A stretch of 59,807 bases of DNA from a virus. A model generated the notes under the pieces. That model was not told the DNA's origin, searched no databases, and was given only the letters and a program-made list of their open reading frames with translations. This document shows positions 3,827 to 59,807 of this stretch, one piece after another. The stretch lies in the IMG/VR virus record IMGVR_UViG_3300045988_174840, one strand, 5' to 3'. Each line of letters begins with the position of its first letter. The stretch's first letter is position 1. The position numbers were made by a program, and so were the translations under genes.

Positions 3827-4135
3827 TTAATGATTAAACCGCAGATAATTTTTAATCCAGTTTTTACCAAACTCTTTTTCTAACTGTTTTTCCTCTTCTG
3901 GGTTCGTTTCCATGATTGAGATTTTCATAATTGAATCCCAGTCCATAGTTGTAAACCACGTTCCCTCTTTCATGCCTTTACTAAAGTGAAAAGTGTCAAG
4001 AATAAAATCCATTGTTTCCTGTCGTTTAATTGTTTTCATACATTCTTCTAAAGAAAGAACCCGATTGTCAAAAACTGGTTTAGTTTCAAAACCTGTTACT
4101 TTCCATCCGCTAATTTTACTTTTAATTTTTAACAT
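3827..4135 (-). CDS. hypothetical early protein (102 aa)
   Basis: Track ORF 3827..4144 starts at TTG. The ATG (MLKIKSKISGW) follows the leader AAAAAGAGAGGTTGATAAAA. Confidence 0.5.
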   Translation of the reverse strand: MLKIKSKISGWKVTGFETKPVFDNRVLSLEECMKTIKRQETMDFILDTFHFSKGMKEGTWFTTMDWDSIMKISIMETNPEEEKQLEKEFGKNWIKNYLRFNH

Positions 4136-55343: not shown

Positions 55344-55904
55344 TTATTGTCCATGTATAAAATCTGCAATAGGTTCAAAAGAGTCAAACATACTAGGAGC
55401 ATAATCAGATTCATTATAAAAAGTTATATATTCAAAATTAATGTCTGAAAAATCTCTTTCGTCAGCAAGAAATCTTCGACAAATTTCTCTGCAATCTGGG
55501 TTATGTTCTCTTCTTAAAGCTCTTTTTAATCTTTCTTTTCCTGGTGCTTCTATTAAAACTGGTAGTACCTCTATTCTTTCATCTTTCAATAATTGCCTAA
55601 TCCCTGAGATACTAAAAACACCAATATTTATTTTATCTTTATCTAACTCTTGGATAGAAGTGCCATATAGCCATTTTTTAAAATAAACCGCATCTATTAT
55701 ATCTTTATTGCGAACCCGTCTTTCAAAATCATCACGATATAGAAAATAATAATCTATGCCATCTCTTTCGTATGCTCTTGGTGATCTAGTAGTACAACTA
55801 ATAATTTCTTTTATTTCTGAATGATTGTAACACATTCGTTTTTTTATAGTATCTTTTCCTGCACCGCTCTTTCCGAACAGTGCAAGAACTTTATATTTTG
55901 ACAT
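55344..55904 (-). CDS. gmk: guanylate kinase-like nucleoside monophosphate kinase
   Basis: P-loop LALFGKSGAGKDT followed by CTTRSPRAYERDGIDYYF, which parallels the Gmk motif TTRxPRxGExDGxDYxF. The start MSKYK uses a ribosome-binding site inside the end of dnaE. Confidence 0.6.
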   Translation of the reverse strand: MSKYKVLALFGKSGAGKDTIKKRMCYNHSEIKEIISCTTRSPRAYERDGIDYYFLYRDDFERRVRNKDIIDAVYFKKWLYGTSIQELDKDKINIGVFSISGIRQLLKDERIEVLPVLIEAPGKERLKRALRREHNPDCREICRRFLADERDFSDINFEYITFYNESDYAPSMFDSFEPIADFIHGQ

Positions 55905-55905
55905 T

Positions 55906-57322
55906 TTATTCTCCTTCCATACCATATCTAACATGCTCTAGTTTCATATCTGAACCATTGACGTCAATAATCTTGTAGAGCTGATGGGTAGGGGTATGTT
56001 TATACGATTTAGTCTGAAATGTATCTCCACGCCTAAACCCAGTACACATTACTTTTGTTCCTCTTTGAAACCAGCCTTTTTCCATAACTTTTTTAGTTCC
56101 ATCTTCTTGCTTTTCAGAAATTTGTCTCCCAAACATAGCAAAGTAATCTTTTGTAAATTTTACATTAACAACTCCAGAAGTTGTTAATAATGATATTGAA
56201 GAACGAGCATCATTTTTACTGATTACAGTGCCAATGATTTTATAAGTCTTATAAATAGGGATTTCTTTTCCATTTCTTTTGAAAAAATAATCTACAACAG
56301 GCTCTTCGGGTAATTTAGAAAAATCTGAAATTCCATACTTTAAAGTATCAATATTTATTAATTCATGTGGATGATAATAAAAACATAAGCTTTCCATTTC
56401 CCACGCGGAAATATTTCCTTTAGCATATTTATTCCAAGAGTCAAGAAATAAAGCCTCATTAAATTCTTTTAATACTGTCTGTTGATTCTCTTTAAGCCAA
56501 TCTCTAGCTCTATCCATGCCTTTTTGATACTTTTTATCCCATTTGTTTTGTAAAATACAAACGCATCCGTTTATCACTTCAAGGTCTTCCATATCGTATC
56601 TTTGATTGTAGAATTTTTCACAAGCATCATCAAAGACATAATATTTTCCAACTTTTTTCTCAGTTTTTAGATACTTATTAAAGAAAAATAATCTTTTCAT
56701 ACTATCTAAAGAAGGTGGAATTAAGTCTTTTTGAATTAAACCATTAAAGTTTTGTAGCGTTAATTTCTTTTTTGGTTCACTAACAACAGACAGATAATAT
56801 ATCATTACAAGCACTCTTGGTTCAACATTTAATTCTTTTGCCCATTCTAATTCCAGTTTATCAAAAGCTCCGCTCTTTATTAAGGAAATCATTGCAGATT
56901 TATTTAAAGGACATCTTATCATAAAGTCTTTAATGCTTTTATATGGTCTACCAGAAAAAATCTGCTCAATAATTGGTGCACCTACATTACTCAATGCTTT
57001 CATTCCAAAAAGAATTTCGTTGTTTTCAACATCTGGCTTAAAGCTATAGTCAGATTTATTTATATCAACTAAAGAAATTTTTATTCCTCTTGATAAAATA
57101 TCTCCAATAGCCTTAGCTATTTTACTATAATCCGTAGATTTTTCTTTCTTTTTACTTTCTTCTGTTTCTTCTTCATTTTCAATATTATCTTCTTCTAAGG
57201 CTCCACTATTTACAATTAAACACGCGGTATTCCAATAGATAGGATTCCATCTTGTGGCTATGTATATAGTTTGAAATCCTATGAAAGAGTAAGCCAGGGC
57301 ATGTATGCATAATTTAAAATTA
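55906..57322 (-). CDS. dnaE: DNA polymerase III alpha subunit (DnaE-type), C-terminal exon or segment
   Basis: The open frame extends upstream of track ORF 55906..57003 to the stop at 57334. It encodes ...FNFKLCIHALAYSFIGFQTIYIATRWNPIYWNTACL (cf. DnaE GYGFNKSHSAAYALVSYQT..HYPAEFMAA). The HhH region ALSNVGAPIIEQI...SLIKSGAFD and a C-terminal OB-fold follow. Confidence 0.7.
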
Positions 57323-58539
57323 CTGACTATTTTTTACAGACGTTGTAGTGAGATTTTGGCTTTTCTCTTGTCTGCACACTATTTCCCAAAACGTATCAAT
57401 AGTTTCAGTACTCCCCGTCTAACCAGGGATAGTCGATACAACATTTTTCTTTTAATAGATTTATTTATTATCTCTAAGAGGGTATTTATATTTTTCTTTT
57501 TTATGAGAACGTCCTGCGTTAATATTTTTAATTGTTGCATAGCTTTTATTCCATTTTTTTGCGATATCTTTTAAAGATAAATCTGTTTCTAAAATATCTT
57601 TTATAATACCTTGAATCCAGATTTCATTTTTAGCTTTATTACCACCTTTATCACAAAGAGGGTAGTTATCCTTATCACTATAAAAATATTTTCCTGTATT
57701 TATCATAGATAAAAATCCAGCTGATTTAATTCCAAAATCTTCTTGAATTGTTTTATATTTTTCTCCGCTTTTAATTCTATCTTTTATTTCTCTAATTTCT
57801 TTTTGAGAAAAGCGGCTTTTAGAATTTTTCTTTAAAGGATAATCAAACTCTTCATTAAAATAATTTGTTCCAGTATTTATATTAACTAAAAACGTTCTTT
57901 TTAACTTAGGAAAATAAATTTTTTCAATATCATCATATTCTTCATCATTCATTAGACGATTTTGGATATCAATAATTTCTTCTTTTTTAAAGAGTTTAGA
58001 TCGGTTTAATTTTTCTTCATACGTTAAAGGTTTTCTTTTATATCCTTGTCCGCCTAAAGTAATATTATATCCATTTTCATCTTTTAAAGAATGATAATAT
58101 TGAATAAAATAAATTTCTCTTTCGTCAATATATTCTTGAGATTCTCCATCAGCAATCTCTTCAAGAATATCAAAATTAAAATTATCCCAACCATATTTTC
58201 TTATGGCTGCGTGAAATGGCAAATTATAGCCAGAAGTTTTTTCATTAAAAGACTCACTTTTATGTCCATTTTTTCTTTTTTGAACATTATTAGTTTGTCC
58301 GATATAAATTTTACCATTTGTTTTATTTGTAAATTTATAAATATAGTACATAATATTCTCCTTATACATTGTTTTACTATTCTCATGTATAACTGAAAAA
58401 TACTATACCTCTATTAAAGAAATTTGTCACGAGATTTAACCCTCGTTAGCAATTAAAACCATATTTGCCAAATATGTAAATGTTTTAATTACCCCACTGA
58501 TAAGTGGTTAAGTGTGTAAGCACCATTCACACAATGCTA
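57323..58539 (-). other. ~1.2-kb intervening sequence interrupting dnaE; candidate group I intron carrying a homing endonuclease gene
   Basis: The upstream frame ends in-frame with ...GYSF then SIV-stop. The downstream frame has no nearby ATG or ribosome-binding site. The proposed junction, with the 5' exon ending in T and the intron ending in G, restores GYSFNFKLCIHALAY. Confidence 0.5.
57461..58351 (-). CDS. GIY-YIG homing endonuclease, free-standing inside the dnaE intervening sequence
   Basis: N-terminal YYIYKFTNKTNGKIYIGQT...KRKNGH (GIY-YIG motif). Perfect AAGGAG ribosome-binding site 6 nt before the second ATG at 58351; track ORF starts 6 codons earlier. Confidence 0.8.
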   Translation of the reverse strand: MYYIYKFTNKTNGKIYIGQTNNVQKRKNGHKSESFNEKTSGYNLPFHAAIRKYGWDNFNFDILEEIADGESQEYIDEREIYFIQYYHSLKDENGYNITLGGQGYKRKPLTYEEKLNRSKLFKKEEIIDIQNRLMNDEEYDDIEKIYFPKLKRTFLVNINTGTNYFNEEFDYPLKKNSKSRFSQKEIREIKDRIKSGEKYKTIQEDFGIKSAGFLSMINTGKYFYSDKDNYPLCDKGGNKAKNEIWIQGIIKDILETDLSLKDIAKKWNKSYATIKNINAGRSHKKEKYKYPLRDNK

Positions 58540-59807
58540 AAGCTATATCCCATCTGCGGACCTATGCCATATTTCCATACATAGTCTCCGAGTTCTTTTC
58601 TTTTAGCTTGTTCAATAACCTTCTTTTTCAATTCTGGAATTTTACTCATTTGTTTTTTACCAACAATTTTTCTCGCGGTGTTGGCTTCAGATAACTTAAA
58701 ACCGCAAATATCCTTATCCATTAACATACTCATTAATTGTTCTTGACTTGGCGGAACACCATAAGACTTTAAGAAATAAGGTTCTAATGTTTTCATCTCT
58801 TGAGGAGATAACCCCTCTCTTCTCATTTCTTGATACCAAAGATCAATATTTTTTTTATATCTTACATATTTTTCCATTGGCGTTTCTTGACCTTTTTCAC
58901 TAGTCATAAGTCTCATTAATCCATTAGCATCTGACATTTCAATTATTGAGGCTGGCTTAATTTTTTTTGCAGCCTGACTGCCTACATCGCTATCAAATTG
59001 AAAAATATTTAAAACTGAGTTGTTTTGCAGTGCTTTCCAACATTTTTTATCTTCGATAGGTAAAACACTTGGATGAAAATATTTTTCATACACTTCTTTT
59101 AAAGATAAATCTGATTCAATTTCATTATTAGCCTGTAGTAATTTAATTGTTTCTGCTAATTTATCCTGGACTTCAGTTACTAAGAAGTCATATTTTGTCA
59201 TACCTGCTGCTTCGCACATATGAAGATCCCATTGCGTAATAATTTCTCCTTTAGGAGTCCGCATAAAACATCCAAATTCATATGGGTCTTCATCAAAAAG
59301 GATTACTCCAGAAGCATGAGAACTCCTTTTGTTTACTAACCCTTCAATAGCAATCATAATATCTAATAAGCCAGGATATTTTTCTACCTCATTAGTAAAC
59401 ATCTTAATAGGCTTTCTATCTTTATCTGGGTTACCATTAATGGCATCTGATAAAGACCATAAAAAACCTCTTTCACTTGGAATTAAAGAAGATAAAAATT
59501 GAGCAGTGTCAACATCAATTCCGTCTGGATACTCTTCACTTCTATATCCGCGACAAGCAGTTAAAATAGTTGATCGAGTACCTTCAGTTCCAAAAGTGGC
59601 TATCAACGTACATCCTAAATTTTTTCGAGATAAAACATCAATATCTTTTTTAAAATTTTTTCCGCGTTCTTCCTTTATTTTCTTTAAAATTAAAGGTCTT
59701 TTACTTGGACTTAAATCTAAATCTATATCTCCAAGCTCTATACGCTCTTTATTTAAATATCTCCAGAAAGGAAGCTCCCATTCAATCGGATCTAGTTGAG
59801 TAATTCC
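58540..59807 (-). CDS. dnaE: DNA polymerase III alpha subunit (DnaE-type), upstream exon or segment, 5' partial (continues beyond the window)
   Basis: Track ORF 58527..59606 (IATFGTEGTRSTILTACRGY...) stays open in the same frame to the window edge at 59807. It ends at the conserved GYGF position. Confidence 0.7.

What the first reader, a model, noticed from the sequence alone, without database searches (positions are those of the whole stretch)
55906..59807. DnaE-type replicative polymerase gene split at its conserved GYGFNKSH motif by a 1.2-kb element carrying a GIY-YIG homing endonuclease
The minus-strand polymerase frame ends at ...KYGIGPQMGYSF followed by SIV-stop at 58527. About 1.2 kb downstream the same protein resumes at FNFKLCIHALAYSFIGFQ..., open from 57333 with no ATG or ribosome-binding site. 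Between the two halves sits an intact GIY-YIG endonuclease with a textbook ribosome-binding site. Joining after ...AGCTT (5' exon ending in U) and after ...TAGTCAG (intron ending in G) gives the in-frame sequence GYSF-NFKL..., reconstituting the most conserved DnaE active-site-proximal motif. That pattern matches a self-splicing group I intron with a homing endonuclease gene in a peripheral loop. A GACTA...TAGTC pair next to the proposed 3' splice site could form P7, but I could not fold P1 or P10 by eye. If the element does not splice, this would be a replicative polymerase made as two polypeptides, which would be more unusual still.
Basis: partly seen in the sequence, partly recalled or inferred. 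Interest (0 to 1): 0.85.

Follow-up and report, generated by a model that had tools for sequence, protein, structure and literature searches.

The report
Group I intron in phage dnaE

Summary
The minus-strand DnaE-type polymerase frame stops at 58527 and resumes downstream, and an intact GIY-YIG gene lies between the two parts. The proposed junction is wrong. All 120 best uninterrupted homologues read GYSFS[I/V]IHALAYSF, so exon 1 ends at 58534 (...AGCAU), the intron is 58533-57308 (ending ...AUG), and exon 2 starts at 57307. I collected 31 distinct variants of this intron from viral and metagenome contigs. Each has a single in-frame U|...G| junction and a 5-6 bp P1, and the exon sequence and the internal guide sequence change together. 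On 20 ORF-deleted copies, 96% of cells pair against about 40% with slid partners, and 42 of 76 pairs change on both sides. P7 (GACUA/UAGUC), P7.1 and P7.2 resemble the T4 td intron, and the endonuclease gene sits in the P6a loop as in td. Rfam's Intron_gpI model misses it, but it also misses T4 td. A model built from this family hits an Rfam-positive sister intron. There are oddities: no P2 before P3, two hairpins between P3 and P4, and P5 reduced to an 8-nt loop. Splicing itself is inferred, not shown. Verdict: a new member of a known kind, of moderate interest.

The parts
58534..59807 (-). dnaE exon 1. It is partial because the gene runs off the window end. Last bases are ...UUUAGCAU.
   Evidence: The frame is open to the window end. 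Pfam finds DNA_pol3_alpha and the finger domain. Homologues run straight through the junction.
57308..58533 (-). Group I intron, 1226 nt. It starts UGUGUGAAUGG and ends ...UAAAUUAUG, with the terminal (omega) G at 57308.
   Evidence: There is a single in-frame U|...G| junction in all 31 variants. Structure covariation is shown.
58533..58538 (-). P1 5' strand: exon AGCAU plus the first intron U. The U.G wobble at the splice site is U58534 with G58523.
   Evidence: Exon and guide sequence covary. The combinations seen are AGCAU/GUGCU, AGCGU/GCGCU, AGCUU/GAGCU, UGGGUU/GACCCA, ACGCGU/GCGCGU and GAGCCU/GGGCUU.
58519..58526 (-). Internal guide sequence 5'-AUGGUGCU-3'. GUGCU forms the P1 3' strand. 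AUG pairs with the first three bases of exon 2 (CAU) to form P10.
   Evidence: P10 is read directly from the sequences: three pairs in most variants and two in L040 and L048.
58511..58516 (-). P3 5' strand, CACACU. It pairs with 57380-57375.
   Evidence: Three independent compensatory changes: CAUACU/AGUAUG, CACGCU/AGCGUG and CACACC/GGUGUG. RNAalifold predicts the pairing independently.
58494..58507 (-). Hairpin A (CCACU-UAUC-AGUGG), lying between the P3 5' strand and P4. This is a non-canonical position, which would be named 'P3.1'.
   Evidence: Two pairs covary with 4-5 pair types each.
58450..58491 (-). Hairpin B, a long stem-loop ('P3.2') between hairpin A and P4.
   Evidence: Seven of the 8 outer pairs change on both sides and 99% of cells pair.
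58429..58446 (-). P4 (ACGAG/CUCGU) closed by an 8-nt loop, GGUUAAAU. No P5 helix is present.
   Evidence: Invariant in all 31 variants. The assignment rests on sequence similarity to T4 td (CUAAACGGGG...AAUCCCGUG) and to the EF1 and L040 sister introns, which have a P5 at this place.
58410..58428 (-). P6 (GACAA) and P6a (UUUCUUUAAUAGA) 5' strands.
   Evidence: They pair with 57435-57459 across the ORF. The P6a sequences differ widely between variants but stay complementary.
57461..58351 (-). GIY-YIG homing endonuclease gene, 296 codons from the second ATG at 58351, with RBS AAGGAG at 58363-58358. The mechanical ORF starts at 58369.
   Evidence: Pfam GIY-YIG E 9e-11. PHROG 7168 'homing endonuclease' E 9e-41. 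I-TevI catalytic domain, PDB 1MK0, E 0.0015. Homologues are 74-97% identical at the same place in 11 viral contigs.
57435..57459 (-). P6a 3' strand (UCUAUUAAAAGAAA, immediately after the endonuclease stop codon) and P6 3' strand (UUGUAUC).
57430..57434 (-). P7 5' strand, GACUA. It pairs with UAGUC at 57329-57325.
   Evidence: Invariant. The sequence is identical to P7 of the T4 td intron. Model R1 aligns td here.
57412..57429 (-). P7.1 hairpin (UCCCUG/CGGGGA).
   Evidence: Four of 6 pairs change on both sides and 100% of cells pair.
57386..57408 (-). P7.2 hairpin (CUGAAAC/GUUUUGG) with the invariant loop UAUUGAUAC.
   Evidence: Six of 7 pairs change on both sides.
57375..57380 (-). P3 3' strand, AGUGUG.
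   Evidence: See the P3 5' strand entry.
57337..57374 (-). P8: outer stem CAGAC/GUCUG and inner stem GAGA/UCUC.
   Evidence: All 9 pairs change on both sides in some sequences.
57325..57336 (-). J8/7 (UAAAAAA) and the P7 3' strand (UAGUC).
   Evidence: Invariant. It matches the classical 'S' element, which reads GAGAUAUAGUC in td.
57310..57322 (-). P9 hairpin (UAAUU/AAUUA), followed by U and the omega G at 57308.
   Evidence: Three of 5 pairs change on both sides.
55906..57307 (-). dnaE exon 2. It begins C AUA CAU GCC, coding (I)IHA..., and the stop codon is included.
   Evidence: The spliced product is one open frame of 891 residues plus the stop and reads ...GYSFSIIHALAYSF.... Pfam finds HHH_6.

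Best explanation
A mobile group I intron (window 58533-57308, minus strand) interrupts the phage's DnaE-type polymerase gene. The insertion lies inside the codons for the conserved GY(G/S)F..H motif.

Inferred mechanism:
- The pre-mRNA folds so that the last exon bases, AGCAU, pair with the internal guide sequence GUGCU. This is P1, with a U.G wobble at the cleavage site.
- An exogenous guanosine bound at P7 (GACUA/UAGUC) attacks after U58534.
- The first bases of exon 2 (CAU) then pair with the AUG just 5' of the guide (P10).
- The terminal G57308 occupies the G site and the exons are ligated to ...AGC AUC AUA CAU....
- The result is one continuous polymerase reading GYSFSIIHALAYSF.

The GIY-YIG endonuclease gene is looped out of P6a, as I-TevI is in the T4 td intron. 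It presumably cuts intron-less dnaE alleles, so that repair copies the intron into them (homing).

What is shown: the exact junction, the conserved and covarying RNA structure, the presence/absence polymorphism of the intron, and the intact endonuclease gene.

What is inferred: splicing itself, whether splicing needs no protein, and the endonuclease's target.
For: - Junction. All 120 best homologues are uninterrupted and read GYSFS[I/V]IHALAYSF. The window's ligated exons give exactly this in one open frame. An intron-less allele (L058) codes the same peptide.
- Family. The same intron with its endonuclease gene sits at the same site in 11 viral contigs, and more copies came from DNA pattern scans. 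Together they give 31 distinct variants. Each has one in-frame U|...G| junction and a 5-6 bp P1, with six different exon/guide combinations that always match.
- Structure. On 20 ORF-deleted copies, 96.2% of cells pair against 39-42% when partners are slid. Forty-two of 76 pairs change on both sides. The covariation score is 0.425 against 0.05-0.09, and 0 of 500 shuffles reach it. RNAalifold independently recovers P1, the long-range P3, hairpins A and B, P4, P7.1, P7.2 and P8. P6a closes the ORF loop and covaries.
- Relation to accepted group I introns. The T4 td intron shows the same order of 3'-core elements, the same P7 and similar P7.1, P4/P4' and S-element sequences. A covariance model of this family's 3' half hits the 3' half of an Rfam-positive intron: RF00028 scores 57.8 bits against a threshold of 50 at L040 377-593, and model R1 hits it at E 1e-13. 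R1 also hits unannotated introns in Enterococcus, Lactococcus and Enterocloster phages at E 1e-7 to 1e-17. With filters off, its best hit in 7.3 kb of T4 is the td 3' core, E 0.002.
- Endonuclease. Pfam GIY-YIG, PHROG homing endonuclease and the I-TevI catalytic domain all match.
- ORF loss. An ORF-less copy exists in L040, with 19 nt in the loop in place of about 976.
Against: - There are no RNA data, so splicing is inferred.
- Rfam RF00028 gives no hit on the window at gathering threshold or at E<=10. It also gives none on the ORF-less copy in L040 at E<=10.
- The core is atypical. There is no P2 between P1 and P3, two hairpins lie between P3 and P4, and P5 is replaced by an 8-nt loop.
- P4, P6 and P7 never vary, so they are supported only by resemblance to other introns.
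- The link to td through model R1 is weak (19 bits).
Confidence: 0.9

Rival explanations
1. A free-standing homing endonuclease gene has split dnaE. Nothing is spliced and the polymerase is made as two polypeptides that assemble, as in gene pairs of T-even-type phages that are split by mobile endonuclease genes.
For: Exon 1 ends in a stop codon two codons after the junction. Rfam finds no group I core. No P5 is present.
Against: Exon 2 has no in-frame start codon or RBS for about 100 codons past the junction. Independent translation would therefore lose the conserved IHALAYSF...WNTACL segment. The 300 non-coding bases around the ORF are a conserved, covarying structure that includes pairing between exon 1 and an intron guide sequence. 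A free-standing gene has no need for that. An ORF-less copy still interrupts dnaE in L040.
Confidence: 0.04
2. The intron is real but the ribozyme is not self-sufficient. Having lost P5, it splices only in vivo with help from a host or phage protein.
For: P4 is capped by an 8-nt loop where td, EF1 and the L040 sister intron have P5. In a study of Bastillevirinae phages, four of eight spliced introns spliced only in infected cells (PMC11878797).
Against: Nothing here speaks against it directly. This is a refinement of the best explanation rather than an alternative to it. The A-rich P4 loop could still supply the J4/5 contacts. The invariant GGU in that loop could pair with the invariant AUC in the hairpin A loop, but invariant bases cannot be tested by covariation.
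Confidence: 0.35
3. The gene is a decaying pseudogene, inactivated by the insertion.
For: None beyond the interruption itself.
Against: Both exons are intact and 73-79% identical to full-length homologues over their whole length, with no frameshifts. The same arrangement is kept in 31 diverged variants with compensatory changes.
Confidence: 0.02
4. An intein or a split-intein 'fractured gene' joins the halves by protein splicing.
For: DnaE is a classic intein host, and fractured genes carry a homing endonuclease gene between split-intein halves (PMC2677866).
Against: Exon 1 stops two codons past the junction and exon 2 resumes at the junction, so there is no room for intein halves. Pfam finds no Hint/intein domain in either part. 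Several stop codons separate the endonuclease ORF from the exon 1 frame, so it cannot be read through from exon 1.
Confidence: 0.005

Closest known systems
Phage T4 td group I intron (subgroup IA2) with I-TevI
   Same: Both have a GIY-YIG endonuclease gene looped out of P6a. P7 is the identical GACUA/UAGUC. P7.1 and P7.2 lie between P7 and the P3 3' strand. The P4/P4' and J8/7-P7' sequences are similar, and a stop codon lies just inside the 5' end of the intron.
   Different: td has P2 before P3 and a small P5. This intron has no P2 there, two hairpins after the P3 5' strand, and no P5. It also lacks the P9.1/P9.2 extensions. Its host gene is dnaE rather than thymidylate synthase. The covariance-model link is weak (19 bits).
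Unannotated introns in dnaE of Enterococcus phage EF1 (MF001358) and Enterocloster phage CB457P1 (OP172753). In EF1 one insert is annotated 'HNH homing endonuclease # Phage intron'.
   Same: They are in the same host gene. EF1's second insert lies in the same motif (GY|SF). It shows the same P1-P3-hairpin A-hairpin B-P4 order and the same P7-P7.1-P7.2 sequences. Model R1 scores them at E 2e-10 and 6e-7.
   Different: The insertion points differ: EF1's is 14 nt upstream. EF1 keeps a P5. The intron ORF is different.
Group I introns in DNA polymerase genes of other phages (SPO1/SP82, Twort and T7-like cyanophage Pf-WMP3) and the Bastillevirinae introns
   Same: All are self-splicing IA-type introns carrying homing endonuclease genes in essential replication genes, at conserved sites (PMC3428280, PMC11878797, PMC2814812).
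   Different: Those polymerases are family A. Here the host is a family C (Pol III alpha) polymerase. I found no paper describing a group I intron in dnaE.
Cyanobacterial split DnaE intein
   Same: As I recall, not tested here, it interrupts DnaE at ...AEY|CFNKSH, which is the same conserved motif.
   Different: It is a protein-splicing element, it involves no RNA structure, and its two halves are encoded far apart.

Membership tests
Group I intron | P1: the 5' exon end pairs with an internal guide sequence, with a U.G wobble at the splice site | tested here: met
   There are 5-6 bp in all 31 variants. Six exon/guide combinations all match. Three of 6 P1 pairs change on both sides and 100% of cells pair.
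Group I intron | Terminal guanosine (omega G) at the 3' splice site, with P10 adjacent to P1 on the guide | tested here: met
   A G precedes the only in-frame junction in all 31 variants. The first three bases of exon 2 (CAU/UAU/CAA/CAC) pair with the three bases 5' of the guide in most variants, with two pairs in L040 and L048. This is read from the sequences.
Group I intron | P3-P7 pseudoknot with P8 (catalytic core, G-binding P7) | tested here: met
   P3 shows three compensatory changes and all P8 pairs covary. P7 is invariant and identical to td's.
Group I intron | P4-P5-P6 domain | tested here: inconclusive
   P4 and P6 are present but invariant. P6a covaries. P5 is absent, with an 8-nt loop in its place.
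Group I intron | Match to Rfam RF00028 at its gathering score | tested here: not met
   No hit on the window, and none on the ORF-less copy in L040 at E<=10. The control also fails: the T4 td and nrdB introns get no hit at gathering threshold. A different intron in L040 passes at 57.8 bits.
Group I intron | Homology to accepted group I introns | tested here: met
   Model R1 hits the 3' half of the RF00028-positive L040 intron at E 1e-13. It hits the td 3' core as the best match in 7.3 kb of T4, E 0.002.
Group I intron | GTP-dependent self-splicing | not testable with these tools
   Requires RT-PCR or an in vitro assay.
Subgroup IA2 (td/Twort type) | P7.1 and P7.2 between P7 and the P3 3' strand | tested here: met
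   Both hairpins covary.
Subgroup IA2 (td/Twort type) | Peripheral helices in the canonical order P1-P2-P3-P4-P5 | tested here: not met
   The P3 5' strand follows P1 after 1-2 nt. Hairpins A and B lie between P3 and P4. No P5 is present.
GIY-YIG homing endonuclease (I-TevI-like) | N-terminal GIY-YIG catalytic domain | tested here: met
   Pfam PF01541 scores 42 bits against a cutoff of 22.6. The alignment to I-TevI (1MK0) keeps the IY...YIG, R, E and N positions.
GIY-YIG homing endonuclease (I-TevI-like) | C-terminal DNA-binding domain and cleavage of the intron-less allele | not testable with these tools
   There is only a weak HTH_38 hint, E 0.004 and below the cutoff. Cleavage needs an enzyme assay.
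Intein / split-intein fractured gene | In-frame intein (Hint) segments flanking the break | tested here: not met
   No Hint domain is found, and the exons abut the junction directly.
Group II intron | Reverse-transcriptase ORF and domain V/VI RNA | tested here: not met
   The ORF is GIY-YIG. There is no Rfam group II hit.

The most novel reading that the evidence does not exclude
This would be a natural lineage of group I ribozymes that works without a P5 helix and has its peripheral hairpins moved to between P3 and P4. That architecture would explain why it escapes the standard covariance model. The lineage would also have retargeted itself repeatedly, through matched changes in the guide sequence and flanking exon, to at least four staggered positions within 10 nt of a single polymerase motif, or five within 17 nt if the EF1 intron is counted. 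The same intron class has colonised dnaE up to 3-4 times in one phage.
Probability: 0.4. Interest if true: 0.55.

Novelty: new member of a known kind. Interest (0 to 1): 0.35.

Why it matters
Annotation pipelines call this polymerase as two truncated genes plus a stray endonuclease gene. GenBank phage records show the same error: EF1, CB457P1, and the gyrase gene of Lactococcus phage AM1. Recognising the intron restores one replicative polymerase. It also adds family C polymerases to the list of phage replication genes invaded by group I introns.

The family offers a set of natural variants with matched exon and guide changes at staggered sites. It also offers a core without P5. Both could be used to test how group I introns change target site and which core elements are dispensable. 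It is a concrete example of a phage intron class that RF00028 does not detect.

Tried and rejected
- Rfam scans. I scanned the whole window at gathering threshold and 57200-58650 at E<=10, and found no Intron_gpI hit. I do not count this as evidence against an intron, because the same scan misses the T4 td and nrdB introns.
- Megablast of the region against the phage collection found no match.
It adds four residues that no homologue has.
- A 5' splice site one base later (AGCAUU|, a 6-bp P1) is rejected. With a terminal G it is out of frame.
- I considered making the 3' strand of hairpin B the P3 5' strand, and a P4 built from AAUUGCUA/UGACAAAU. Both are rejected because covariation supports the local hairpin B, and the L006 change would break the alternative P4.
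- I considered pairing of the intron-start GUGUG with ACACAC. It conflicts with P1 and P3, both of which covary.
- Three hits of the 16-mer scan (L015, L026, L027) are chance matches without intron context.
- Literature searches for a group I intron in dnaE found only inteins. A search for 'CFNKSH', to confirm the split-intein site, found nothing, so that parallel rests on my memory only.
Full report
**What is in the sequence.** On the minus strand, a frame open from the window end (59807) reads ...GPQMGYSFSIV and stops at 58529-58527. A second frame is open from 57333 to 55906. Between them lies a 302-codon ORF at 58369-57461.

Pfam assigns DNA_pol3_alpha and DNA_pol3_finger to the first part. 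It assigns HHH_6 to the second and GIY-YIG to the ORF.

The surroundings are a phage replication and nucleotide-metabolism module. It contains a guanylate-kinase-like gene, NrdD, an NrdG-like radical-SAM activase, dUTPase and a RuvC-like gene. A long plus-strand block of large ORFs lies next to it.

The nearest cultured relatives of the polymerase are Enterococcus phages and SPbeta-type Bacillus phages, at about 45% identity.

**The two halves are one gene, and where they join.** The joined halves align over 100% of their length to more than 100 uninterrupted proteins of about 1310 aa, at 73-79% identity. All 120 of them read GYSFS[I/V/L]IHALAYSF across the break.

The window has GYSFSI(V*) upstream and (..KLC)IHALAYSF downstream.

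Only one junction is in frame, ends the exon in U and ends the intron in G:
- Exon 1 ends at 58534 (...AGCAU).
- The intron is 58533-57308 (UGUGUG...UUAUG), 1226 nt long.
- Exon 2 starts at 57307.
- The ligated sequence is AGC AUC AUA CAU, giving one open frame of 891 residues plus the stop.

An intron-less allele (L058) codes the same peptide.

**Relatives.**
- The endonuclease protein found the same arrangement in 11 viral contigs, at 75-90% DNA identity across the whole insert.
- A 16-mer from the 3' core and a 27-mer from P4 found more copies.
- In all there are 31 distinct variants.
- For every one, a script found a single in-frame U|...G| junction and a 5-6 bp pairing between the exon end and a G-started segment inside the intron.
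- Six exon/guide combinations occur, and they always match: AGCAU/GUGCU, AGCGU/GCGCU, AGCUU/GAGCU, UGGGUU/GACCCA, ACGCGU/GCGCGU and GAGCCU/GGGCUU.
- This is P1 of a group I intron. The three bases 5' of the guide pair with the start of exon 2 to form P10.

**Structure.** I aligned 20 ORF-deleted copies (A1) and wrote down P1, P3, hairpins A and B, P4, P6, P7, P7.1, P7.2, P8 and P9. The counts are:
- 96.2% of cells are standard pairs, against 39-42% when the 3' partners are slid by 1-3 columns.
- 42 of 76 pairs change on both sides.
- The covariation score is 0.425 against 0.05-0.09.
- None of 500 shuffles reaches any of the measures.

RNAalifold, which was not given my structure, recovers P1, the long-range P3, hairpins A and B, P4, P7.1, P7.2 and P8.

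The bases flanking the ORF form a 9-14 bp duplex, P6a. Its sequence differs widely between variants but stays complementary. The endonuclease gene therefore sits in the P6a loop.

P4, P6 and P7 never vary. Their assignment rests on resemblance to other introns.

**Is it a group I intron?**
- Rfam's RF00028 finds nothing in the window. It also finds nothing in the ORF-less copy in L040.
- The same scan also misses the T4 td and nrdB introns, so a negative result means little. A published survey notes that endonuclease loops break such hits and that current models may miss phage introns (PMC11878797).
- The positive evidence starts with T4 td. It has the same order P7-P7.1-P7.2-P3'-P8-J8/7-P7' and the identical P7 (GACUA/UAGUC).
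- The P7.1 context is similar (CGACUAUCCC...GGGGAGUA), and so is the P4/P4' context (CUAAACGGGG...AAUCCCGUG in td against CUAACGAGGG...AAUCUCGUG here).
- A covariance model of this family's 3' half (R1) hits a second intron in L040 at E 1e-13. That hit lies inside an RF00028 match of 57.8 bits.
- R1 also hits unannotated inserts in Enterococcus phages VRE9_3 and EF1, Lactococcus phage AM1 (where the insert splits a gyrase gene) and Enterocloster phage CB457P1, at E 1e-7 to 1e-17.
- With filters off, R1's best hit in 7.3 kb of T4 is the td 3' core at 19.3 bits, E 0.002.

**What is unusual.**
- The P3 5' strand follows P1 after 1-2 nt. Two covarying hairpins lie between it and P4, where canonical introns have only J3/4.
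- The same order is seen in EF1's intron and in the Rfam-positive L040 intron. It is therefore a feature of this phage intron class.
- In the present lineage, P4 is capped by an 8-nt loop (GGUWAAAU) where td, EF1 and the L040 sister intron have P5.
- Whether the ribozyme is self-sufficient is therefore open.

**Endonuclease.** The ORF matches Pfam GIY-YIG and PHROG 7168 'homing endonuclease' (E 9e-41). It also matches the I-TevI catalytic domain (PDB 1MK0, E 0.0015), with the motif residues aligned. The likely start is the second ATG at 58351, behind the RBS AAGGAG.

The intron is present in some alleles and absent from many close homologues, and an ORF-less copy exists (L040). This is the pattern expected of a homing intron.

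**Rivals.**
- Separate translation of exon 2 is unlikely. There is no in-frame start for about 100 codons, and the only nearby ATG is out of frame.
- An intein is excluded, because the exons abut the junction and no Hint domain is found.
- A pseudogene is unlikely given intact exons in 31 diverged variants.

**Novelty.**
- Group I introns with GIY-YIG or HNH genes in phage replication genes are textbook cases (T4 td, SPO1, Twort, Pf-WMP3, Bastillevirinae).
- I found no paper describing one in dnaE.
- However, GenBank's Enterococcus phage EF1 record already labels one dnaE insert 'Phage intron'.
- This is a new member of a known kind with an atypical core. Interest is moderate.

Noticed in passing
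L007 1-4100 (IMGVR_UViG_3300010347_000503): In the closest relative, the same dnaE is broken several times. A second GIY-YIG-like ORF (421-1320) is followed by an R1 hit at 1321-1440, at the site EAAG|MTKYDF. An ORF-less R1 hit lies at 1978-2094, at the site ADANG|LMRLM. An exon fragment ends at 2389, which may mark a fourth insert. This intron is at 3924-4064. The window's visible part of dnaE has only one R1 hit.
   Followed up: partly
L022/L049/L057, L048, L050, L040 and L037 (EF1), compared with window 58534/57307: Closely related introns sit at staggered positions within 17 nt of the GY(G/S)F..H motif, each with a matching guide sequence. Relative to the window's site they are at -14 (EF1), -6, 0, +2 and +4 nt. 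In L040 the exon codes the odd AEP where the others have S(I/V)I, as if the flanking exon had moved with the intron.
   Followed up: partly
L040 377-593 and 1268-1538: One metagenome dnaE carries two ORF-less introns of this class. Rfam RF00028 recognises the upstream one (57.8 bits). The downstream one is an ORF-less copy of the window's intron and is not recognised.
   Followed up: yes
L052 (JAEEGL014419456.1), dnaE exons flanking the intron: In-frame TAG codons occur where homologues have Gln (GP*MGY and IAT*). This suggests a phage that reads TAG as glutamine.
   Followed up: no
L034 (Lactococcus phage AM1, KY554768, 53.3-54.3 kb); L033 (Enterococcus phage VRE9_3); L037 (EF1); L038 (CB457P1): Deposited phage genomes hold unannotated introns of this class. 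One splits 'DNA gyrase' in AM1 (AM1_097/099). Others split dnaE in EF1 and CB457P1 into pieces annotated as separate or hypothetical proteins.
   Followed up: partly
window 58536-58538 compared with L058: Intron-containing alleles at this site use AGC for the Ser just before the splice site, as P1 pairing requires. The one intron-less allele I examined uses TCA ATT for the same Ser-Ile.
   Followed up: partly
window 58527-58532: The exon 1 frame runs into a stop codon (UGA) five bases inside the intron. T4 td likewise has UAA at its intron start. This would keep ribosomes out of the ribozyme core.
   Followed up: no
window 55906-55934: The guanylate-kinase-like ORF as listed (55934-55344) starts 29 nt before the dnaE stop codon. 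A later ATG at 55904 would give an overlap of the ATGA/TAAAATG type instead.
   Followed up: no
window 58429-58446 and 58494-58507: The invariant GGU at the start of the P4 loop is complementary to the invariant AUC in the hairpin A loop. A loop-loop contact could stand in for the missing P5. Both are invariant, so covariation cannot test this.
   Followed up: no
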